From an uncultured Alphaproteobacteria bacterium (lineage in GTDB: Bacteria; Pseudomonadota; Alphaproteobacteria; CAWJRW01): a stretch of 64,000 bases of DNA. The position numbers were made by a program, and so were the translations under genes. The stretch covers positions 1,544,910 to 1,608,909 of the forward strand of contig CAWJRW010000006.1 in NCBI GenBank assembly GCA_963845385.1, read 5' to 3'. Shown here one piece after another: positions 16,855 to 28,047 of the stretch; position 1 is the first letter of the stretch; every line of letters starts with the position of its first letter. The notes under the pieces are model-generated. The model saw only the letters and a list, made by a program, of their open reading frames with translations. It searched no databases and was not told the origin of the DNA.

Positions 16855-18218
16855 ATGGTTGCAGACGCCAATTCGCCAACCGATCGCCAACAGCAGACGG
16901 TGCTCGTGCTCGGTCCCGACATACCGCGCGCGCCGTCGTCCGAGGGCGTGGCTTTCTCCACCGATCCGCGGACGGCGTGCGACGCCATCGTCATTTCGGA
17001 GCCGATCGACGAGGCGACCTGGCGCGCGCTCGCCGAAGGCCGGCACGCGCTCGTGCCGATCGTCGACTTCGGCGTCAACAAAGGACTGTCCGCGGATTTC
17101 AGCGCCGAGGCGCTGACACGGGAGAACGTGCAGGCCGCGCTCGGCGAGTGCCAGCGCATCTGGCGCCGCCTCGCGAACTTGCCCCTCGCCGAGCTCAAGA
17201 CGAGCCCCGACACGATCGAGCTTTCGGTGCTCGCGCTCGCCTATTCGCGCGACAAGCCCATCGAGGCCAAGCGCACGAGCGAAGCCCGCGCCACGGTCTA
17301 TTACCCGCTGCTCCTCAAGCGCTTCGGGCTCGGCGCCGCCGATCTGCGCGCCACCCTCGCGTTTCTCGCCAACCTGAACCTCTTGAACCCGAGATTTTTC
17401 GCGCGCGCGCATCTCTGCAAAGCCTGCGGCTCGTCCAGGCTTTGCGCCTTCGAAGCTTGCGTCAAATGCGGCAGCGGCGCGCTCAACCAGGAAGTCCTGA
17501 TCCATCACTATCGCTGCGGCTACCAGACGCGCGAAAGCGAGTTCGTCGTCCAGCGCGATCTCGTCTGCCCGAAATGCCGCCGCGTGCTGAAACATTTCGG
17601 CGTCGATTACGACAAGCCGGGCGTGGCGATTCGCTGCGAGAGCTGCGCCGCAAACATGCACGAGCCCCAAGCCCGTCTTTCAGTGCCTCGATTGCGCGCA
17701 AACGACGAATGCCGACGCCGCGGAGACGATCGACTGGTTCTCCTACGATTTGACCGACCAGGGCAGCGCCGCGGTGCTCGAAGGCCATCTGCCCAATCTC
17801 GATCTCGCGCGCATCATGAAGCGCGAACCGCGCGCCTATGCGGGCACCGACTTTGCGCTGCTCATGGGCGAGCAGCTCCGGGTCGCCAAGCGCTACAAGC
17901 GCCCGATCTCCGTTGCCTTGATCCAAATCTCCAACGAAGACGAAGTGCGAACAGAGCTCGGCGTCGCGGGCGCGAGTGCGGCTTATCGCTTCGTTGCGGA
18001 TCTGATGGCGGAGAACTTGCGCGAGACCGATTTTTTCACCATCACCCAGGGCAAGGCCATTCTCGTGGCCTTTCCGGAGACCGATCCCGAGCGCACCGCG
18101 CTGGCGCTCGCGCGGGTCAAGTCGAAAATCAGCCAATCCATCGCGGCGCCCGTGGAACTCAGCTGCGGACGTGCGCTCCGCCGAGGACGCGGCGCAGCTC
18201 ATCGAGGCGCAGAGGTGA
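16855..18218 (+). pseudogene. Multi-CxxC zinc-ribbon (TackOD1-like) protein with C-terminal degenerate GGDEF domain retaining an RxxD I-site; two frame breaks near 17665 and 18172
   Basis: CKACGS...CVKCGS...HHYRCGY...CPKCRRVLKHFGVDYDKP...CESC...(extra C in gagCCCCaag)...FQCLDC. Then RYKRPISVALIQISNEDEV...NLRETDFFTITQGKAILVAFPETD, which aligns to PleD-type ...RAIDLPCRYGGEEFVVIMPDT. The stop TGA at 18216-18218 overlaps the GTG of the next gene. Confidence 0.65.
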
Positions 18219-19534
18219 CGGGCGCCGACCCGGTCGCCACGGGGCTCGAGGCCGTGGGCCTCTTGAGACAGCTCGATCTCGAAAGTCTCGTGCGCCTCTT
18301 CTGGTACACGTTGCTTTTCGACTTGCCGCGCTATGCGGTGGGAAGCCTGATCATTCTCACCACCCCGCTTGCGCGCCGGCTCCTGCCTGCGGCGCGACGC
18401 GAGCCCCGAACCGATTTCCGGGAAGCCCCTCAGCTTCAGCGTCGTAATCGGCGGGCACAACGAAGCAGAGGCTCTGCGCAGGTGCATCGCCTCCATACGC
18501 GAGCAGACCATCATGGACGCCGCGCGCGGCGAGATCATCGTCATCGACGACGGCTCGAGCGACGAGATGGCGCGCGTCATGGCCGATCTGCGCCGGCGCG
18601 GGGCCATCGACGTCGCGCTGTCCTTGGGGCTCCGCGGCGGCAAGAGCGCCGCCGTCAATCTGGGTCTCAGGCACTGCAAGAACGACATCGTGATCATCGC
18701 CGATGTCGACACGAGCTTCGATCGCGACGCTTTCGAGCGCCTGCTCGAGCCCTTCGAGAATCCGGAGATCGGCGCGGTGTGCGGCAATCTGACGTCTGCG
18801 CAATCCCTTCGTGAGCATGGTGACGCGCTTCCAGGCGATCGAATATCTCATCTCGATTTCCCTTGGCCGGCGCGTGAGCGACGTCTTGGGCGTGCTCTCC
18901 ATCGTCTCGGGCGCGTTCGGCGCCTTCCGGCGCGAGGCTTTGCACGCGGTCGGCGGCTACGACGTCGAGGTGGGCGAGGATGCCGATCTCACCTTGAAGC
19001 TCATTTGGGCGGGATGGCGCATCGCTTTCGCCCATGAGGCGCGCGCGAGCACCGACGCGCCCGAGACCTTCTCGGCCTTGGTGCACCAGCGTCTGCGCTG
19101 GGACCGGGGCGTCATCACGATTTGGGGACGCAAATACCGCCGCGCGCTCGATCCGCACTACGCCAACTTCACGCTCGGGATGACGCTCATCCTGGCGGAC
19201 GTCTTTCTCTTCGAGGCGCTGCTCAGCGTCGCGATGATCGTCTACCTGTTCTGGCTGTTTCTCACCTTCGGCAGCTTCGGCTGGGTGCTTCTCGTCGCCA
19301 CCATGAGCATCTATTTCGGCCTCAGCGCTGCGATGCTCGTCGCGGCCGCAATTCTCGAGCGCGACGCGGACGCGCTCGCGCTTCTTGCCCTATGTGCCCT
19401 TCTATTCGCTCATGAACTTCGCCGTTATGCGCCTGGTTCGCCTCATCGCGTTCGTGGACGAGCTCGTGTTCCGGCGCTCCTACCGCGATCCCTATGTGCC
19501 ACGCCGCGTCATGGATCAGGTTGAGTGGTTCTGA
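18215..19534 (+). pseudogene. Processive family-2 glycosyltransferase (polysaccharide synthase with QxxRW motif); three frame breaks near 18395, 18800 and 19390
   Basis: N-terminal TM LFWYTLLFDLPRYAVGSLIIL. FSVVIGGHNE, IIVIDDGSSD, IIADVDT, VSGAFGAFRREAL, GEDADLT and QRLRWDRG form the D,D,D,Q(R/Q)xRW set of processive GT2 synthases. C-terminal TMs follow. Pieces lie in ORFs 17750, 18369 and 18811 plus a third frame ending ...RVMDQVEWF. Confidence 0.75.
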
Positions 19535-20535
19535 TGAAGAAGCTGCAGTCGCGCGCGCGGCCCGACAGGCTGACGAACGAGCTTCGTCCGCGCCGGACCG
19601 CGCTGTCGCGCTGGCTCTATCTCGGCGTGCTCGGCGTGCTTGCGCTGTGGGTGGGCGATCTTCTGTTCGGCGGCTTTTTCTTCCTGCGCTCCGACGGGAT
19701 CGTGCTCGCGCCCTCCGTGACGGTATCCGCCGAGTTCGTGGGCACGGTGCGAAGCTTGAGCGTGCACGAGGGCGACGCCGTCGAGCAGGGCAAGCTCGTG
19801 GGCACGGTGAGCTCCCACGGCGTGGTCGAAGGCATCGCGCGCAATACCGTCGAGGTGGTCAATCTGCGCTCCAAAATCTTCGACCTCAAAACCCGCGCGG
19901 AGATCATCGATGCCGTTCTCTATCTCGCCACCGAACGCAGCAAGTCCGCATCCGACGCGCAAAAGACGATCAGGTCGCTCGCCGACCAGAAGATCCTTCC
20001 TCTCGATTTCCGGACGGCCGCGGTCGACGCGCAATATCGAAGCCGTTACGACATGGCATCCCTCGAGGTGGAGCGCGACGCGACGGCGGCCGAGCTTTCG
20101 TTTCTCGATCCCGCCGTCAAGCAGGCCGAGGCCGCGGTCGCCGATCTCAGAAGGCTCTACGCCAACGGCAATGTCCTGGCGCCCATCAGCGGCATTGTCG
20201 GCCGTCTTCATGCGGTGCCGGGCTCGGTGTTTCAGCCGGGCCAGCCGCTCATGGAGATCTACAGCGACGCGCGCTATGTGCTCGCCTATCTGCCGAGCGG
20301 GGCGCTCTACCAGGTCGCGGTGGACGATCCGGTGACGATCCGCTGGGGCCTGCGCGCGCTGCGGGGAAAAGTCATCCGCATCGAGCCCATCGCCGCGAGC
20401 CTGCCGTCCGAGTTCCAGCAGGCCTTCAAGCCCGTCGATCGCGCGCAAGTCATCCGCGTCGCTTTCGATGCCGGCGCGAGCCCGCCGCCTTTGTTCACGA
20501 AAGTGAGGCTGCGCGCGGGCATATCTTTCTGGTAG
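19534..20535 (+). CDS. HlyD-family (membrane-fusion-protein-like) protein
   Basis: ORF 19525..20535(+). The ATG at 19534 shares its A with the GT2 stop (tgATGa). One N-terminal TM (WLYLGVLGVLALWVGDLLF). Lipoyl-like hairpins VSAEFVGTVRSLSVHEGDAV and APISGIVGRLHAVPGSVFQPGQPL flank a coiled region. Confidence 0.7.
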   Translation: MKKLQSRARPDRLTNELRPRRTALSRWLYLGVLGVLALWVGDLLFGGFFFLRSDGIVLAPSVTVSAEFVGTVRSLSVHEGDAVEQGKLVGTVSSHGVVEGIARNTVEVVNLRSKIFDLKTRAEIIDAVLYLATERSKSASDAQKTIRSLADQKILPLDFRTAAVDAQYRSRYDMASLEVERDATAAELSFLDPAVKQAEAAVADLRRLYANGNVLAPISGIVGRLHAVPGSVFQPGQPLMEIYSDARYVLAYLPSGALYQVAVDDPVTIRWGLRALRGKVIRIEPIAASLPSEFQQAFKPVDRAQVIRVAFDAGASPPPLFTKVRLRAGISFW

Positions 20536-22223: not shown

Positions 22224-22299
22224 TGGTAGCGGGAGAGGGATTCGAACCCCCGACCAAAGGATTATGATTCCTCTGCTCTACCGGCTGAGCTATCCCGCC
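22224..22299 (-). tRNA. tRNA with CAT anticodon (tRNA-Met elongator type; Ile-lysidine type not excluded)
   Basis: Minus-strand 76 nt: GGCGGGATAGCTCAGCCGGTAGAGCAGAGGAATCATAATCCTTTGGTCGGGGGTTCGAATCCCTCTCCCGCTACCA. Folds by hand into a cloverleaf: 7-bp acceptor stem, GCTC/GAGC D stem, anticodon loop ATCATAA, TTCGAAT T-loop, encoded CCA. Confidence 0.9.
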
Positions 22300-23666: not shown

Positions 23667-24583
23667 ATGGTCCGCATCGCGCTTCTCTTATGCATCGCGA
23701 TCTTCGCGCTTGCCGGATGCAACGAGGGGGAGCAGCGAAGCGCGAGCGCGCCTGCGCCGCCTCCTGCGGAGCGGGCGTCCGGCGCAGCGGGGGTCCAAGA
23801 CATCACCGTCACCGCCGAGATGCGGGCAGAAAAACCGAAGCTCGCCTACAGTCACGACCTTGCGCTCGAAATGGCGGCCGCGACGGTTGCGCCGCGCTTC
23901 GAGCGCGCGCGCAACGCCTGCCTCGAAGAGGCGGCGCTCAACTGCAGCCTCGTGCGCGCCTCGATCTATGTCGGCGATCCGAACACCGGCCAGCCGCCGG
24001 AAGCGACGCTCAACGTGCGCCTGCCCCACGACCAGATCGCGGCCTTCGAGAAAATTCTCTTCGCACGGCTCCCGGGCGAGGGCGAAGGCGAGCCTTTGCT
24101 GCGCCAGCGCACGACCGATGCCGAAGATCTGACCTACGCCATCGCCGACAACGACCGGAGGCTTGCCCAGGCGATGGATTATCGCGAACGGCTCTTGGTG
24201 TTGAGCAAGCAAAGCGGCGCCAAGGTGGCGGACCTCATCCAGATCGAGGAAAAGCTGTCGGAGGTGCAGAGCAACATCGAGCGATGACGGCCGATCAGCG
24301 CGGCATGAACATTCGCGTGGACACGGAGCTCATGAACGTCGCTCTGAGCGCCCATGCAAGCCTTGCGGTGGTCTCCTCGCCGCTCGCCGAGGCCTGGCGC
24401 GACGCCGCGCGCGTGCTGGGGCAAAGCGCGGCCTCGGCCTTCACCTTCCTCGTCGTCGTCATTCCCTGGCTGCCGCTTATTGCGCTCGCGGGATATCTCT
24501 TGTCGCGGCTGTGGCGGATCGTGCGCCGCCGCCGCGCGCAAGCGGCGACCGCGACGGAAAGCGCTCAGGGCGGCGCAGCGTAG
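23667..24583 (+). pseudogene. DUF4349-family lipoprotein; one frame break near 24283
   Basis: Lipobox LLLCIAIFALAGC. ...KLSEVQSNIE | (A)MTADQRGMNIRVDTELMNVAL..., with a C-terminal TM FLVVVIPWLPLIALAGYLL. The junction needs one extra G (gag gcg). Confidence 0.6.
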
Positions 24584-24747: not shown

Positions 24748-25680
24748 TTACTTCGCCGGCAGGAAATTGAGGAGCGAGATGGTCTGCAATTGCGACAGGA
24801 TATAAGTCGCGGCTTGGCTTGCCACCTGATCCTGATTCAAGCGCGACACGGCGTCGGCCATGTCCACATCTTCGATGTCGGAGATGAAGCCCTTGATGAA
24901 CACGCTCGTCTGCTCGTGGACTTCGGTGACGCTTTCCACCTGCTGCTGATACTGGCCGTTGCGCGCCACGATGTTGTTCAAGTCCTGTGACACGGTCTTG
25001 AGCGTCGGCAAGATCCCCTGAAGGAACGCTTGCTGTTGCGGGGTGAGCTGGTCCGAGAAGGGGCCGTCTACGCCGGCATTGAAGTCCGCGATGCTCTTCA
25101 AAGCCGTCATGAGCGGCTCGCCGATCTCGTCGGCGAGGAAGGTGTAGTTGAGAGTCTGGCCGGTATCGATCTCGACGCCTCGACGCTGCTGATCGTTGGT
25201 GAAGATCGTCGACGCCGAAGGCGCTGCCGAAAGATCGGCGAGGCTCGAGATATTCACCGGCGCAGTGTTGCCGCGCGAGCCCGCGAAAATATAGCTGCCG
25301 TCGACCTGGGCATTGAGCCCGGAGAGCGCTTGGCGGAAGACGCCGTCGACGGCCTCCATCAGCCCCAAGCCGGAATTGAGGCTCAAGGCGTCGAGCACGT
25401 TCTGGCGCAGCTGGCCCGCGGAGGAGGCGATCTGCTCCAGCTGAACGTTCTGATTTTCGAGCCGGCCGCCGAGCTCGGTCACCGTCTTCTGGAATTGCGC
25501 GATGCGCGTCTCGACGCGCTTGGCCGACAATAAGACGCCCGTATCCTTCGCCAGATCCTTGTAGGTCTGCCCGACCTTTCCCGTCGACACCTGGAGCTGG
25601 GTCTGGAAGGTGCGGGCATTGGTCTTGAGGAGCTCGCTCAAGAGCGTCTGCTGCTGGGAGAGGGTCGCGATGCGGGTCAT
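24748..25680 (-). CDS. flgL: Flagellar hook-associated protein 3 (FlgL)
   Basis: Intact 310-aa ORF directly downstream of flgK. Flagellin-like termini (MTRIATLSQQQTLLSELL... and ...QVASQAATYILSQLQTISLLNFL). Confidence 0.8.
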   Translation of the reverse strand: MTRIATLSQQQTLLSELLKTNARTFQTQLQVSTGKVGQTYKDLAKDTGVLLSAKRVETRIAQFQKTVTELGGRLENQNVQLEQIASSAGQLRQNVLDALSLNSGLGLMEAVDGVFRQALSGLNAQVDGSYIFAGSRGNTAPVNISSLADLSAAPSASTIFTNDQQRRGVEIDTGQTLNYTFLADEIGEPLMTALKSIADFNAGVDGPFSDQLTPQQQAFLQGILPTLKTVSQDLNNIVARNGQYQQQVESVTEVHEQTSVFIKGFISDIEDVDMADAVSRLNQDQVASQAATYILSQLQTISLLNFLPAK

Positions 25681-25701
25681 GGAAAGCTCCGGCCAAACGC
25701 G

Positions 25702-27861
25702 TCAGACGGCGTTGAGCAGCGCCTGGAAAAGGTCGTTCGAGGCTTGAATGAGACGCGCGGCGGCGTTGTAGGACTGCTGATACTGGATCATGTTCGCGAG
25801 CTCTTCGTCGAGATTGACGCCCTCGATCGCGGTCATGCGGTCGTTGATGTCCGCTTGCAGGGACTGGTTCTCGTCGCGCAAGGCGTCGGCTTGCGCCGCG
25901 AGATGTCCGGCGTCCGAAAGCACCGTGCCGGCATAGCTCGACAGCGTCGCCTGCAGATTGCCGAGATCGCCGGCGGCCGAAAAGCTGATGGCATTGTCTT
26001 GCACGGCCGAGAGCGCGAGCGCGCCGCGATTGTCGCCCGCGCCCAGCACCATGTCGCCCGGCGCGGTCGCGGGCGAAAGGTCGATCTGCGCCAGCGCGAG
26101 CTTCGACGGATCCGAAGCGATGCTCGCGCGCAGGCTCAAATTGCGTGCATGATCCATCTGCGCGTTGTCGCCGATGCCGAAAAGCTGCGTGAAGCTCTGC
26201 GCCGTGCCGCCGCGCGCGGTCGTGTCGTTCGCGACTTCGACGCGATAGCCCTGGAAGGCCGCCGTGGGCGTGGCGGTGAGTTGTCCGTTCGCGTCGAGAC
26301 TGAAGGTGAGATAGCCGCCGAGGCCGGTGCCCGCGGTGTTGAGGTCGTTCACGATGTCGCCGATGGTGCCGGCGCCGATCGTATAGGTGTAATCGATGGC
26401 GACCTGGCTGTTCGGGCCGCGCAGCACGAGCTCGAAAGTCTGGCCGGGCGTGAAGCCGTGGGCGTCGGCCGCGCTGAGCCCCGTGTCGAAGGTCGAGGGC
26501 ATCGAGGCCTGGAAGAGATCGTTGAGACCGAAGAAGTGCGCGAACCCCCGGCCGCCGCGGTCGCTGGCGGTGGCGGCGTCCTGCACCACGGCCACCCCGT
26601 TCGCGGGCAGGGCCGCGTTGAGCGTCATCACGCCATTGGCAAAAGCGAGATTGCCGTCCGCGCCGAGGCCCGTGTTGATGGCCGCCACCATGTCGTCCAC
26701 GGTCGCGCCGCCGAAGGCCACCGGCCCGGCGCCATTGACGCTGTAAGTGCCGGCGTCGAAGTCCACATCGACGCGCCGCACGAGCGCGCCCGTCGAATCC
26801 GCGACCACGAACGTCGCCTTGCCCGTGAATCCGTAATCGTCGGTGCCGAGAAGCCCGGTGTTGCGGCCGGTGAGCGCGTTGGCGGCGGGGCTCGCCGCGT
26901 TCTCGTTGTGCGCGGCGTTGAGCGCGTCGGCGAAACGGCCGGCAAGCTCGCCGATCTCCTTGGCGAGAGCGGGCAAGACCTGGCTCCGCATGTTGAGGAG
27001 CCCGCGCAGCTTGCCGTCGCCGAGATGCGGCTCGAGCGCCGTGCCTTGCGGAACGAGCGAGCCGGTATTGGGATCGAGGCGGCGAATGACGATGGGCGCG
27101 AACATCGTCTGCGAGCTGATGGGCCCCGGCGGCGTGTAATCGAGCTGAAAGAGCTGCTCGGTGACGAGCGGCACGCCGTCCTGCGTCGTGACATAGAGCT
27201 TGCCGTTCGCCTGCTCGGCCGTGCGCACGTTCATGAGCTCGGCCAAAGCGCGCACGGCCTGGTCGCGCTGATCGCGCAAGCCGGCGGCATCGTTGCCGCT
27301 CAACACCTCGCGCTGGATCTCCGGATTGAGATTGTCGATGCGCTTCAGCGCCTCGTTGATGGTCGTGATGGTCGAAGTGACCTGCTGCTCGGTATCGGAG
27401 CGGATCGACTGGATGTGGTCGAACAGGCTCGAGAACATGTCGGCCGTGCCGCTGAGCGAGGTCAAGAGCGATTGGCGGCGGATGGTGGAGGTGGGATCGA
27501 TGGACAGATCGCTGATCGCGGCAAAGAGCTGATCGATGCGCCCGCTGAGCGAGCTGTTCTGATCCGGGCGTCCGAACAAGCCCTGAATGCTGTCGTGAAT
27601 CTGCGCCTCGGCGTCGTAGCGCGCCGCGGACGATGTCACCTTGAGCGACTCGCGCGCGAGAAACGTCGCCGCCGCCCGCCTGATCTCGGCGATCTGCACG
27701 CCGCCGGAGGTCGAGCCGTATTGGACCGGCTGCAACTCGATGATGCGCCGCTTGTAGCCCGGCGTGTTGACGTTGGCGATATTCGACGCAGTGGTGCCGA
27801 GCGCGGTCTGATTGGTCTGCAGCGCGGAAAGCGCGTTGGAAAGAATCGAGCCGACCGCCAT
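25702..27861 (-). CDS. flgK: Flagellar hook-associated protein 1 (FlgK)
   Basis: ORF 25702..28038(-) trimmed to MAVGSILSNALSALQTNQTALGTTASNIANVNTPGYKRR (rod/hook N-terminal consensus). C-terminus EELANMIQYQQSYNAAARLIQASNDLFQALLNAV. Confidence 0.9.
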   Translation of the reverse strand: MAVGSILSNALSALQTNQTALGTTASNIANVNTPGYKRRIIELQPVQYGSTSGGVQIAEIRRAAATFLARESLKVTSSAARYDAEAQIHDSIQGLFGRPDQNSSLSGRIDQLFAAISDLSIDPTSTIRRQSLLTSLSGTADMFSSLFDHIQSIRSDTEQQVTSTITTINEALKRIDNLNPEIQREVLSGNDAAGLRDQRDQAVRALAELMNVRTAEQANGKLYVTTQDGVPLVTEQLFQLDYTPPGPISSQTMFAPIVIRRLDPNTGSLVPQGTALEPHLGDGKLRGLLNMRSQVLPALAKEIGELAGRFADALNAAHNENAASPAANALTGRNTGLLGTDDYGFTGKATFVVADSTGALVRRVDVDFDAGTYSVNGAGPVAFGGATVDDMVAAINTGLGADGNLAFANGVMTLNAALPANGVAVVQDAATASDRGGRGFAHFFGLNDLFQASMPSTFDTGLSAADAHGFTPGQTFELVLRGPNSQVAIDYTYTIGAGTIGDIVNDLNTAGTGLGGYLTFSLDANGQLTATPTAAFQGYRVEVANDTTARGGTAQSFTQLFGIGDNAQMDHARNLSLRASIASDPSKLALAQIDLSPATAPGDMVLGAGDNRGALALSAVQDNAISFSAAGDLGNLQATLSSYAGTVLSDAGHLAAQADALRDENQSLQADINDRMTAIEGVNLDEELANMIQYQQSYNAAARLIQASNDLFQALLNAV

Positions 27862-27930
27862 GAGCGTACCCGCGTCTCTTCGCAAAACCGCCTTGGCCGG
27901 ACGAAGAACAGACCAAGTCGAAAGCTTGCG

Positions 27931-27946
27931 TGCAAGTGAAGTGCCA
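27931..27946 (-). promoter_or_regulatory. Sigma-54 (-24/-12) promoter for flgK-flgL
   Basis: Minus strand reads TGGCAC-TTCAC-TTGCA, a perfect match to TGGCAC-N5-TTGCW. The -12 element lies about 70 nt upstream of the flgK ATG. Confidence 0.7.
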
Positions 27947-28032
27947 GGGCCGCGACGCCGAAATGCCGCGTATTTTCGCGACTTTTTCGGCGCGCCGCGC
28001 GCGCCTCGAACGGAAGTTTTGGCCCTGGCGCG

Positions 28033-28047
28033 CGGCAAGACTTGCCG
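28033..28047. promoter_or_regulatory. Perfect 15-bp palindrome CGGCAAG-A-CTTGCCG: candidate FlbD (ftr-like) enhancer shared by the divergent sigma-54 promoters
   Basis: Lies roughly 85-90 bp upstream of each sigma-54 promoter (27946 on the minus strand, 28135 on the plus strand). Dyad symmetry fits a dimeric bEBP site, and flbD is encoded 8 kb away. Confidence 0.5.

What the first reader, a model, noticed from the sequence alone, without database searches (positions are those of the whole stretch)
17400..18218. Catalytically dead GGDEF domain with intact RxxD I-site fused to a four-pair CxxC zinc ribbon
Hand alignment to PleD-type GGDEF is collinear. KRPISVALIQISNEDEV aligns to (G)DPVSALLIDIDFFKKIND. 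NLRETD-FFTIT-QGKAI-LVAFPETD aligns to NVRAID-LPCRY-GGEEF-VVIMPDT. The catalytic GG(D/E)EF is replaced by QGKAI and the metal-binding Asp is lost. The inhibitory-site RxxD (RETD) sits exactly five residues upstream, the arrangement PelD uses to bind c-di-GMP as a receptor. Upstream lie CKACGS, CVKCGS, HHYRCG, CPKCRR, CESC and CLDC, a TackOD1-like metal-binding module otherwise known mainly as an archaeal output domain. The logic suggested is a Zn-ribbon partner-binding module plus a c-di-GMP sensing module controlling the adjacent synthase.
Basis: partly seen in the sequence, partly recalled or inferred. Interest (0 to 1): 0.65.

Follow-up and report, generated by a model that had tools for sequence, protein, structure and literature searches.

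The report
Predicted c-di-GMP sensor beside polysaccharide synthase
This gene encodes a zinc-finger (TackOD1) protein ending in a dead diguanylate-cyclase domain that keeps its c-di-GMP pocket, and in hundreds of bacterial species its relatives sit directly upstream of the same sugar-polymer synthase gene, so it is probably an undescribed switch for slime production.

Summary
The motifs are real and the hand alignment is correct. However, the window holds no single ORF: the gene (16855-18218, +) is broken by single inserted bases at 17668 and 18164. With those removed it gives a 453-aa protein, 87% identical over its full length to an intact 453-aa metagenomic ortholog.

- **Architecture:** unassigned N-domain (1-116), TackOD1 (117-298, Pfam E=2e-41, five CxxC plus one HxxC) and a short degenerate GGDEF domain (299-453).
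- **GGDEF support:** the family profile hits solved GGDEF domains (6e-14). The AF2 model (pLDDT 88) matches only GGDEF folds.
- **Dead catalytic site:** GG(D/E)EF is QGKAI and the metal Asp is Gln.
- **Intact I-site:** D392, R389, R346 and R420 are among the ten most conserved positions of the domain; D392 ranks first, R389 third.
- **REC pattern:** RxxD is present in 122/145 relatives of 400-539 aa but only 2/25 longer ones, most of which carry REC.
- **Distribution:** at least 587 species genomes.
- **Synteny:** in 93/93 loci an orthologous GT2 synthase lies downstream on the same strand, directly adjacent in about 90. An HlyD-like or OEP-like gene usually follows.

Best reading: a soluble I-site c-di-GMP receptor that controls its partner synthase. 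This is a new variant of the PelD/PssE/YdaK/BcsE kind. Ligand binding is untested.

The parts
16855..18218 (+). Whole gene for the 453-aa TackOD1 / degenerate-GGDEF protein. It is interrupted in this assembly by two single-base insertions.
   Evidence: Three-frame translation. tblastn of intact ortholog P0001 maps residues 1-271 to frame 1 and 262-435 to frame 2. P0001 is 87% identical, 100% coverage, 453 aa.
17668..17668 (+). Extra base relative to the intact ortholog (first frame break, inside the TackOD1 module).
   Evidence: blastn against L001 shows a 1-bp insertion in the window (GAGCCC[C]AAG).
18164..18164 (+). Extra base relative to the intact ortholog (second frame break, 17 codons before the stop).
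   Evidence: blastn against L001 shows a 1-bp insertion in the window (CTCAGC[T]GCG).
16855..17202 (+). N-terminal alpha/beta domain (residues 1-116), unassigned. P68 and D81 are nearly invariant.
   Evidence: AF2 secondary structure. No significant sequence match or fold match (best E=0.07, YfiR). REC-bearing relatives keep this domain after their REC, so it is not a REC remnant.
17203..17749 (+). TackOD1 domain (residues 117-298).
   Evidence: Pfam PF18551, E=2.2e-41, 141.9 bits against cutoff 32.
17416..17695 (+). Metal-ligand cluster: five CxxC plus one HxxC (C188 to C280). That is 12 ligands, enough for three tetrahedral zinc sites.
   Evidence: All 11 Cys plus H217/H218 are conserved in 182-185 of 185 relatives. 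Matches the published motif (PMC5847659). Coordinates verified.
17750..18215 (+). Degenerate, C-terminally truncated GGDEF domain (residues 299-453).
   Evidence: Pfam GGDEF 19.4 bits, residues 339-433 to profile positions 21-114 of 161. Family profile against PDB: 3ign 6.3e-14, 5euh 3.3e-12, DgcR 1.8e-10. Foldseek top 50 are all GGDEF, TM (target-normalised) up to 0.62.
18020..18031 (+). RETD: I-site RxxD (R389, D392).
   Evidence: Aligned with the I-site RxxD of c-di-GMP-bound 3ign. D392 is 90% and R389 86% conserved in 145 REC-less representatives; D392 is the most conserved position of the domain.
18047..18061 (+). QGKAI in place of the catalytic GG(D/E)EF.
   Evidence: The position is not conserved in the family, and most members are one residue shorter here.
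17924..17926 (+). Q357 at the position of the metal-binding Asp (PleD D327).
   Evidence: Placed by ungapped manual register against the PleD sequence recalled from memory; the HMM alignment to 3ign is consistent with it. The column is variable in the family: R/S/T/Q.
18113..18115 (+). R420, 31 residues after R389, the same spacing as PleD R359 to R390. It is the third primary I-site residue, the counterpart of PelD R402.
   Evidence: 76% conserved in REC-less representatives. PelD R367/D370/R402 are all required for binding (PMC2170427). The PleD residue numbers come from memory.
17891..17893 (+). R346 of the RYxRP motif. It is a candidate counterpart of the secondary I-site Arg (WspR R198 / PleD R313).
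   Evidence: 79% conserved. The equivalence is inferred from spacing and remembered residue numbers; it was not tested.
18215..19534 (+). Partner GT2 processive synthase (438 aa after removing inserted bases at 18392, 18792 and 19387). Its GTG start overlaps the upstream stop (GTGA).
   Evidence: Reconstruction. Pfam Glycos_transf_2 2.6e-25. The sequence shows DDG, DVD, GEDAD and QRLRW motifs. PDB matches: HAS1 7e-15, chitin synthases, BcsA 7e-8. An ortholog lies downstream in 93/93 loci.
19534..20535 (+). HlyD-like membrane-fusion protein (333 aa). Its ATG overlaps the GT2 stop (TGATG).
   Evidence: Pfam HlyD_3 4e-12 and HlyD_D23 4e-10. Present in more than half of the 93 related loci. Coordinates.

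Best explanation
The gene encodes a soluble regulatory subunit of a three-gene polysaccharide-synthase module, arranged as sensor, GT2 synthase, HlyD-like adaptor.

Proposed mechanism:
- The C-terminal domain is a GGDEF domain that can no longer make c-di-GMP.
- It keeps the allosteric I-site (R389, D392, R420 and probably R346) and binds c-di-GMP there.
- Ligand binding changes how the protein engages the membrane-embedded GT2 encoded immediately downstream. The contact is made through the TackOD1 zinc module, the N-domain, or both.
- This switches on polymerisation and export through the HlyD-like adaptor, and probably a TolC-type channel.

Shown:
- domain identities;
- the dead catalytic site;
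- conservation of the I-site;
- invariable linkage to the GT2 gene in every locus examined.

Inferred:
- c-di-GMP binding;
- physical contact with the GT2;
- the direction of the effect (activation);
- which domain makes the contact.

The two frame breaks in this window are most likely assembly errors rather than gene decay.
For: 1. **TackOD1 plus GGDEF homology and fold:**
2. **Catalysis excluded:** QGKAI replaces GG(D/E)EF and Q357 replaces the metal Asp. The guanine-contact positions are replaced (by hand register). The profile match stops at position 114 of 161, and the model ends after alpha4.
3. **I-site under selection:** D392 (90%), R389 (86%), R346 (79%) and R420 (76%) are among the ten most conserved positions of residues 300-453 in 145 representatives. 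These representatives are no more than 50% identical to one another. The median position is 27% conserved.
4. **Input swap:**
   - RxxD is kept in 122/145 proteins of 400-539 aa but in only 2/25 proteins of 540 aa or more (Fisher p=1e-13).
   - At least 14 of those 25 carry an N-terminal REC.
   - An example is the Palleronia plasmid locus, flanked by Hpt and histidine-kinase genes.
5. **Gene linkage:** an orthologous GT2 (30-55% identity, near full length) is downstream on the same strand in 93/93 loci from Alpha-, Gamma- and Zetaproteobacteria, Bacteroidales, Calditrichota, KSB1, Caldisericales and Gemmatimonadota. Most pairs have overlapping or near-abutting stop and start codons.
6. **Export gene:** the third gene is HlyD-like in more than half of the loci, and an OEP-domain gene is found in 31.
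7. **Precedent:** degenerate-GGDEF I-site receptors encoded in polysaccharide operons are required for synthesis.
   - PelD needs R367, D370 and R402.
   - PssE has RxxD five residues upstream of the degenerate motif and a Kd of 0.8 uM.
   - YdaK loses function with R202A or D205A.
   - Soluble BcsE has REC*-GGDEF* domains with an I-site.
8. **Assembly errors:**
   - About a dozen frame-breaking indels were found across six genes in roughly 12 kb, including mnmA and two TPP enzymes.
   - All but one are 1-bp insertions in the window, and few lie in homopolymer runs.
   - Identity to the ortholog is the same on both sides of each break (84-95%).
Against: - No binding data exist, and conserved Arg/Asp residues can also be structural.
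- The single sequence is below Pfam's GGDEF gathering score. A BLAST search with PleD's GGDEF domain does not find it at all.
- About 16% of REC-less relatives lack RxxD yet keep the GT2 partner (P0012 ADSD; Mesorhizobium P0034). The partnership therefore does not depend on the I-site.
- The REC versus RxxD contrast may reflect one or a few evolutionary events, so the Fisher p-value overstates independence.
- Unlike PelD, PssE and YdaK, the protein has no obvious transmembrane helix (judged by eye; none was predicted formally), so how it reaches the synthase is unknown.
- No canonical GGDEF or EAL gene lies in the 64-kb window.
- The structure prediction of the sensor-GT2 pair could not be run.
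- If the frame breaks are real, the gene is dead in this organism.
Confidence: 0.6

Rival explanations
1. The protein is a structural or assembly subunit of the synthase complex and has no nucleotide ligand. The GGDEF-like domain serves only as a dimerisation or docking scaffold, and the conserved Arg/Asp residues form salt bridges.
For: The GT2 partnership persists in relatives that lack RxxD (P0034, P0012 and the REC-bearing subfamily). The domain is truncated and strongly diverged.
Against: D392 and R389 rank first and third in conservation within the domain, and R420 and R346 are also in the top ten. These are exactly the residues that bind c-di-GMP in PleD, PelD and BcsE. They are lost together when a REC input is present, which fits an input site better than a structural core.
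Confidence: 0.15
2. The protein is a c-di-GMP-responsive transcription factor. The zinc ribbons, and the helical segment before them, bind DNA and autoregulate the operon whose first gene this is.
For: Zinc ribbons often bind nucleic acids. A similar Cys-rich insert in PriA positions a DNA-unwinding wedge (PMC5847659), and there is a weak NCBIfam hit to PriA (E=0.41). Weak Foldseek hits include TFS4/TFIIS ribbons. c-di-GMP-binding regulators of polysaccharide operons are known; CuxR was retrieved.
Against: - No HTH or other DNA-binding family was detected.
- No significant fold match to a DNA-binding protein was found.
- The fixed position directly upstream of the GT2, often with a 4-bp stop/start overlap and conserved across at least six phyla, is more typical of stoichiometric partners than of regulators.
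Confidence: 0.1
3. The I-site-like pocket binds a different nucleotide, for example another cyclic dinucleotide, (p)ppGpp or GTP.
For: GGDEF I-sites and neighbouring surfaces can accommodate other nucleotides. PDB entries 9g85 and 9g86 (PleD with c-di-GMP plus ppGpp or pppGpp) appear among the fold matches.
Against: All characterised RxxD sites at this position bind c-di-GMP. The substrate (GTP) site is destroyed.
Confidence: 0.07
4. In this particular genome the gene, its GT2 partner and several neighbours are true pseudogenes, and the module is decaying.
For: The public assembly carries the frame breaks, and its own gene call is the 530-aa hybrid ORF P0002. The sensor has two breaks and the GT2 three.
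Against: The breaks are almost all 1-bp insertions, occur about once per kb and also hit housekeeping genes such as mnmA. There is no drop in amino-acid identity after each break and no accompanying deletions or stop codons. This pattern fits long-read assembly error on a 2.19-Mb contig.
Confidence: 0.1

Closest known systems
PelD (Pseudomonas aeruginosa Pel system)
   Same: Degenerate GGDEF domain that binds c-di-GMP through RxxD plus a downstream Arg (R367, D370, R402). It is encoded in the polysaccharide operon and required for synthesis (PMC2170427).
   Different: PelD is a membrane protein with four TM helices and a GAF domain, and its partner glycosyltransferase PelF is not a GT2 processive synthase (GAF and PelF from memory). 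It has no zinc module. The family profile built here does not hit PelD chains at E<=1.
PssE (Listeria) and YdaK (Bacillus subtilis)
   Same: I-site receptors with a degenerate GGDEF domain, encoded next to a GT2-type synthase. PssE has RxxD exactly five residues upstream of its degenerate motif and a Kd of 0.8 uM. YdaK R202A and D205A abolish polymer production.
   Different: Both are anchored by N-terminal TM helices, and YdaK fails when they are removed. They have no TackOD1. Their operons carry other partners (PssD; YdaL/N) rather than an HlyD-like adaptor.
BcsE (E. coli cellulose secretion regulator; GIL domain)
   Same: A soluble, multi-domain c-di-GMP sensor whose degenerate GGDEF* domain binds the ligand at an I-site RxxD and which tunes a GT2 synthase (BcsA) (PMC7439463). 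BcsE chains appear among the weak fold matches to residues 1-271 (E 0.14-0.3).
   Different: BcsE has NTD*-REC*-GGDEF* domains and no zinc ribbons. It acts through BcsF and BcsRQ, and BcsA additionally has its own PilZ domain. The fold matches are not significant.
BgsA/BgsB(/TolC) mixed-linkage beta-glucan system of Sinorhizobium meliloti
   Same: An alphaproteobacterial GT2 synthase plus HlyD-like membrane-fusion protein, activated by c-di-GMP and probably exporting through TolC (PMC13438883; PMC5567048, retrieved).
   Different: c-di-GMP binds a C-terminal domain of BgsA itself. Here the GT2 is only 438 aa, with no extra domain, and the predicted sensor is a separate protein. The gene order also differs (bgsB-bgsA).
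Archaeal REC-TackOD1 response regulators (Thaumarchaeota; arCOG06883)
   Same: The same Cys-rich TackOD1 domain, with five CxxC plus one HxxC (PMC5847659).
   Different: The archaeal proteins are reported in type IV pilus loci, lack a GGDEF-like domain and have no assigned function. The bacterial family here carries an added N-domain and C-terminal domain and is tied to a GT2 gene.

Membership tests
TackOD1 (Pfam PF18551) | Score above the Pfam gathering threshold | tested here: met
   141.9 bits against 32; E=2.2e-41; residues 117-298 to profile positions 5-187 of 188.
TackOD1 (Pfam PF18551) | Eleven conserved Cys forming five CxxC motifs plus one HxxC | tested here: met
   C188/191, C202/205, H218/C221, C238/241, C261/264 and C277/280 are all present. 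They are conserved in 182-185 of 185 relatives. Definition from PMC5847659.
TackOD1 (Pfam PF18551) | Zinc (metal) binding | not testable with these tools
   Inferred from the 12 Cys/His ligands only.
GGDEF domain superfamily (PF00990) | Homology detectable by profile | tested here: met
   The single sequence is sub-threshold (19.4 bits against 23.8). The family profile hits 3ign at 6.3e-14, 5euh at 3.3e-12 and many other solved GGDEF domains.
GGDEF domain superfamily (PF00990) | [quoted passage not shown] | tested here: met
   AF2 model with pLDDT 87.9. Foldseek top 50 PDB hits are all GGDEF domains (E from 2.8e-6; target-normalised TM 0.5-0.62). The C-terminal strands beyond alpha4 are absent.
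Active diguanylate cyclase | GG(D/E)EF catalytic motif | tested here: not met
   QGKAI at residues 398-402. The position is unconserved in the family.
Active diguanylate cyclase | Metal-binding Asp (PleD D327) and guanine or phosphate contacts (N335, D344, K442, R446) | tested here: not met
   Q357 sits at the D327 position. R365 and S374 sit at the N335 and D344 positions (hand register against PleD recalled from memory). The region that would hold K442/R446 is missing, because the profile match ends at position 114 of 161.
Degenerate-GGDEF I-site c-di-GMP receptors (PelD / PssE / YdaK / BcsE type) | RxxD five residues upstream of the (degenerate) GGDEF position | tested here: met
   RETD 389-392, FFTIT, QGKAI. 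Aligned to the I-site RxxD of 3ign. D392 is 90% and R389 86% conserved.
Degenerate-GGDEF I-site c-di-GMP receptors (PelD / PssE / YdaK / BcsE type) | Additional downstream Arg of the primary I-site (PleD R390 / PelD R402) | tested here: met
   R420 lies 31 residues after R389 and is 76% conserved.
Degenerate-GGDEF I-site c-di-GMP receptors (PelD / PssE / YdaK / BcsE type) | Encoded in an operon with the glycosyltransferase it controls | tested here: met
   GT2 downstream in 93/93 loci, usually with overlapping or near-abutting stop and start codons.
Degenerate-GGDEF I-site c-di-GMP receptors (PelD / PssE / YdaK / BcsE type) | Specific c-di-GMP binding, and dependence of polymer synthesis on it | not testable with these tools
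   Requires biochemistry and genetics.
Degenerate-GGDEF I-site c-di-GMP receptors (PelD / PssE / YdaK / BcsE type) | Membrane anchoring by TM helices (PelD, PssE, YdaK) | tested here: not met
   No long hydrophobic segment is evident in the 453-aa sequence or in the AF2 secondary structure; no transmembrane predictor was run. Soluble BcsE shows that this feature is not universal.
GT2 + membrane-fusion-protein synthase-dependent polysaccharide systems (BgsBA-like) | Processive GT2 with D, DxD, ED and QxxRW motifs and C-terminal TM helices | tested here: met
   DDG, DVD, GEDAD and QRLRW are visible in the reconstructed 438-aa protein. Pfam GT2 families match. PDB matches are HAS1, chitin synthases and BcsA.
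GT2 + membrane-fusion-protein synthase-dependent polysaccharide systems (BgsBA-like) | HlyD-type periplasmic adaptor in the operon | tested here: met
   Window 19534-20535; HlyD_3 4e-12. Present in more than half of the 93 loci.
GT2 + membrane-fusion-protein synthase-dependent polysaccharide systems (BgsBA-like) | c-di-GMP-binding domain within the synthase itself (BgsA C-terminal domain or PilZ) | tested here: not met
   The GT2 is 438 aa and ends in a short conserved tail. No PilZ or extra domain was found.

The most novel reading that the evidence does not exclude
TackOD1, together with the N-domain, is a dedicated docking and output module for one family of membrane GT2 synthases. It can be driven by interchangeable inputs: a c-di-GMP I-site on a dead GGDEF domain in most lineages, or a phosphorylatable REC in others. 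Together with the GT2 and a lineage-specific export gene (HlyD-like or OEP-like), it defines a previously unrecognised synthase-dependent exopolysaccharide system. That system is spread over at least six bacterial phyla. This reading also gives the first functional handle on the archaeal TackOD1 response regulators.
Probability: 0.35. Interest if true: 0.75.

Novelty: new variant of a known kind. Interest (0 to 1): 0.6.

Why it matters
Degenerate-GGDEF I-site receptors that switch on polysaccharide synthases are known from only a handful of systems (Pel, Pss, Yda, Bcs). This would add a large, phylogenetically broad family: 1,202 clusters at 50% identity and at least 587 species genomes. It has a different, soluble architecture.

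It would also assign a first biological context to TackOD1, whose function the only paper describing it calls obscure.

The strict two-gene coupling, and the apparent swap between c-di-GMP and REC inputs, make the system directly testable in cultured carriers such as Aminobacter aminovorans, Methylocystis iwaonis, Pseudomaricurvus alcaniphilus and Palleronia. It points to an uncharacterised exopolysaccharide likely to be relevant to biofilm formation in soil and marine Proteobacteria and Bacteroidota.

Tried and rejected
- **Sensor-GT2 complex prediction:** I built a paired alignment of 25 fused sensor-linker-GT2 sequences (A4). The interface was therefore not tested.
- **N-domain as a decayed REC:** rejected. 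REC-bearing relatives have REC and then this same N-domain (profile coordinates; Pfam). The N-domain profile has no significant PDB sequence match. The 1-271 model has no significant fold match (best E=0.07).
- **Winged-helix guess for residues 112-187:** the profile found nothing in the PDB.
- **Pairwise BLAST with PleD's GGDEF domain:** it does not detect this domain, or any canonical GGDEF or EAL gene, in the window. Only profiles and the predicted fold show the relationship.
- **Apparent 781-aa GT2-HlyD 'fusion' in L038:** the junction reads as out-of-frame sequence, so it looks like a frame error in that MAG and not a real fusion.
- **Prior description in the literature:** 'TackOD1' occurs in one paper only. 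No paper among those retrieved combines 'zinc ribbon' with GGDEF and glycosyltransferase.
- **Identity with known rhizobial synthases:** the best hit on a Sinorhizobium replicon is only 29% identical, so this GT2 does not appear orthologous to known rhizobial synthases such as ApsS or BgsA. The hit itself was not identified.
Full report
**What is in the sequence**

Between 16855 and 18218 on the + strand there is no single ORF. The mechanical ORF list gives a 530-aa ORF (16855-18447) that starts plausibly and then turns into low-complexity junk. A second ORF (17750-18814) in another frame contains the GGDEF-like text. Translating all three frames shows one coherent protein spread over three frames:
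- frame 1: 16855-17667
- frame 2: 17669-18163
- frame 0: 18165-18218

Joining them gives 453 aa. A protein search returned an intact 453-aa protein (P0001), 87% identical over 100% of the reconstruction. It comes from metagenome contigs that are syntenic with the window. On those contigs every gene that is broken in the window is whole.

**The frame breaks**

DNA alignment to that contig places single extra bases in the window at 17668 and 18164. Further extra bases lie at 18392, 18792 and 19387 in the next gene. More lie in two TPP enzymes and mnmA, and a single-base deletion at 24283 breaks a DUF4349 gene.
- About a dozen frame breaks occur in roughly 12 kb.
- All but one are 1-bp insertions, and few lie in homopolymer runs.
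- Protein identity to the ortholog is undiminished after each break.

I read these as assembly errors on a long-read contig (2.19 Mb), not as gene decay. This cannot be proved from the sequence alone.

**Checking the observation**

- RETD at 18020-18031;
- QGKAI at 18047-18061, five residues later;
- the Cys cluster at 17416-17695.

RETD is the only RxxD in the protein. The title's 'four-pair CxxC' is an undercount. There are five CxxC plus one HxxC, exactly the published TackOD1 signature. The finding's coordinates omit the first 180 codons.

**Domain identities**

- *TackOD1.* Pfam calls it at E=2.2e-41 (141.9 bits against a 32-bit cutoff) for residues 117-298.
- *GGDEF by sequence.* Pfam gives only 19.4 bits (cutoff 23.8) for residues 339-433 against profile positions 21-114 of 161. 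NCBIfam gives weak hits to SiaD, DgcR, the GGDEF domain model and PleD, all far below cutoff.
- *GGDEF by family profile.* I built a profile from the C-terminal 155 residues of 23 diverse relatives and searched it against all PDB sequences. It hit 44 sequences at E<=1, 41 of them GGDEF domains or GGDEF-containing proteins, led by 3ign (6.3e-14), 5euh (3.3e-12), DgcR (1.8e-10) and DosC (5e-10). The family's RxxD column aligned to their I-site RxxD, and its PET motif to theirs.
- *GGDEF by fold.* An AlphaFold2 model of the whole protein is confident (pLDDT 87.9, pTM 0.79). Its 50 best PDB matches are all GGDEF domains: SiaD 2.8e-6, PleD, DgcR, WspR and DosC, with target-normalised TM up to 0.62.
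- *Truncation.* The domain runs alpha1-beta1-alpha2-beta2-beta3-alpha3-beta4-alpha4 and then ends.
- *N-domain plus TackOD1.* A separate model of residues 1-271 is also confident (pLDDT 86.2). It has no significant PDB neighbour (best E=0.07). TackOD1 and the N-domain are therefore structurally uncharted.

**Dead catalytic site, live I-site**

The catalytic site fails on every count:
- GG(D/E)EF is QGKAI, and this position is unconserved in the family.
- The metal Asp position is Gln357.
- The guanine-contact positions are Arg365 and Ser374 (hand register against PleD).
- The segment that would carry the phosphate-binding Lys and Arg is absent.

The I-site is conserved. I used 145 representatives of 400-539 aa, each standing for a cluster at 50% identity. 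Within residues 300-453:
- D392 is the single most conserved position (90%).
- R389 is third (86%).
- R346 is at 79%.
- R420 is at 76%.
- The median position is at 27%.

R420 lies 31 residues after R389, the spacing of PleD R359 to R390 (residue numbers from memory). It is the counterpart of PelD R402, which is required for binding together with R367 and D370.

**Family size and the REC swap**

An exhaustive profile search found 1,202 cluster representatives at E<=1e-30. A scan of one genome per species confirmed relatives in at least 587 stretches. These span Alpha-, Gamma- and Zetaproteobacteria, Bacteroidales, Calditrichota, KSB1, Caldisericales and Gemmatimonadota. 'Mainly archaeal' therefore reflects the Pfam name rather than the distribution.

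Relatives of 540 aa or more usually carry an N-terminal REC in front of the same N-domain. REC was confirmed for at least 14 of 25. In this class RxxD survives in only 2 of 25, against 122 of 145 in the shorter class. One example is a Palleronia plasmid, where the REC-TackOD1 gene sits between Hpt and histidine-kinase genes and reads QTTD in place of RxxD.

This looks like an exchange of input modules on a constant output. It argues that the I-site is an input rather than a structural feature. The classes may be clades, so the statistic overstates independence.

**Genomic context**

In the window the stop codon overlaps the GTG start of a GT2 gene (GTGA at 18215-18218). With its three extra bases removed, that gene encodes a 438-aa membrane synthase with DDG, DVD, GEDAD and QRLRW motifs. 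Its nearest solved relatives are hyaluronan synthase, chitin synthases and BcsA. Its stop in turn overlaps the ATG of an HlyD-like adaptor at 19534-20535.

Across 93 loci gathered from metagenomes, plasmids and species genomes:
- An orthologous GT2 (30-55% identical, near full length) is downstream on the same strand in all 93.
- It is directly adjacent in about 90. In three Rhodomicrobiaceae loci, UDP-glucose dehydrogenase and two epimerase/dehydratase genes lie in between.
- Most gene pairs have overlapping or near-abutting stop and start codons.
- The third gene is HlyD-like in more than half of the loci. A protein with a TolC-type OEP domain is found in 31.
- The cassette is also found in cultured Aminobacter, Methylocystis (with a TolC gene nearby) and Palleronia.

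**Mechanism**

The best-supported reading is a soluble I-site c-di-GMP receptor made together with, and acting on, its partner GT2 synthase. Export would run through a membrane-fusion protein and an outer-membrane channel.

This follows established precedent:
- PelD.
- PssE, with the same five-residue spacing and a Kd of 0.8 uM.
- YdaK, where I-site mutants abolish polymer production.
- Soluble BcsE.
- The GT2 / HlyD-like / TolC arrangement of the rhizobial mixed-linkage glucan system, where the sensor is a domain of the synthase itself.

Ligand binding, the physical contact, activation rather than inhibition, and the role of the zinc module are all inferred. Rivals are given with probabilities in their own section: a ligand-free scaffold, a zinc-ribbon transcription factor, another nucleotide ligand, and a true pseudogene in this genome.

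**Novelty**

'TackOD1' appears in one paper in the searchable library, and that paper calls its function obscure. No paper among those retrieved links 'zinc ribbon' with GGDEF and a glycosyltransferase.

The principle, a dead GGDEF I-site receptor beside a synthase, is known. New here are the architecture, the breadth of the family, the invariable pairing with one GT2 family and the apparent REC versus I-site exchange. I therefore rate it a new variant of a known kind, of solid but not exceptional interest, and testable in cultured strains.

Noticed in passing
window 13479, 14038, 17668, 18164, 18392, 18792, 19387, 21866, 21992, 23443, 24283: The assembly carries about one frame-breaking indel per kb relative to a syntenic metagenome contig. 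All but one (a 1-bp deletion at 24283) are single-base insertions. They split two TPP enzymes, the sensor, the GT2, mnmA and a DUF4349 gene. The pattern looks like uncorrected long-read error, so any ORF-based annotation of this contig will be unreliable.
   Followed up: partly
window 19388-19531 (GT2 C-terminus): The partner GT2 ends in a cytoplasmic tail, DELVFRRSYRDPYVPRRV, whose E, S, D and P positions are invariant in 25 pairs from several phyla. It is a candidate docking site for the sensor.
   Followed up: no
L011:3310-5007 (Palleronia sp. LCG004 plasmid NZ_CP136762.1): A REC-N-domain-TackOD1-C-domain version (565 aa) lies upstream of the same GT2 and an HlyD-like gene. It is flanked by Hpt and histidine-kinase genes, and RxxD is replaced by QTTD. 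This suggests phosphorelay control in place of c-di-GMP.
   Followed up: partly
L004:9482-12905, and also L018 and L022 (Rhodomicrobiaceae MAGs): UDP-glucose 6-dehydrogenase and two NAD-dependent epimerase/dehydratase genes are inserted between the sensor and the GT2. From memory, this resembles the uxs1-uxe-apsS-apsH arabinose-polysaccharide cluster of Sinorhizobium, and it hints that the polymer differs between lineages.
   Followed up: no
L008:9783-11876, and 30 further loci: In Gammaproteobacteria such as Rheinheimera and Alteromonas, and in Bacteroidales, Calditrichota and KSB1, the gene after the GT2 is not HlyD-like. It is a roughly 700-aa protein with a TolC-type OEP domain and a faint GH18-like stretch (E=0.004).
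   Followed up: partly
L013:8557-10011 (Methylocystis iwaonis plasmid): A TolC-family outer-membrane gene lies about 1 kb (one small gene) downstream of the sensor-GT2-adaptor cassette. This fits a tripartite export route.
   Followed up: no
window 22227-22299 (-): This tRNA gene is the only Rfam match at gathering threshold in the 64-kb window (68.3 bits).
   Followed up: no
window 24748-28038 (-): Flagellar hook-associated genes (flgL-like, 310 aa; flgK-like, 778 aa) lie about 4 kb downstream of the cassette. Motility genes and a putative c-di-GMP-controlled polysaccharide module are therefore neighbours.
   Followed up: no
L038:6218-8563: An apparent 781-aa GT2-HlyD fusion in a Rhodospirillales MAG. 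The junction reads as out-of-frame sequence, so it is probably a frame error in that assembly.
   Followed up: partly
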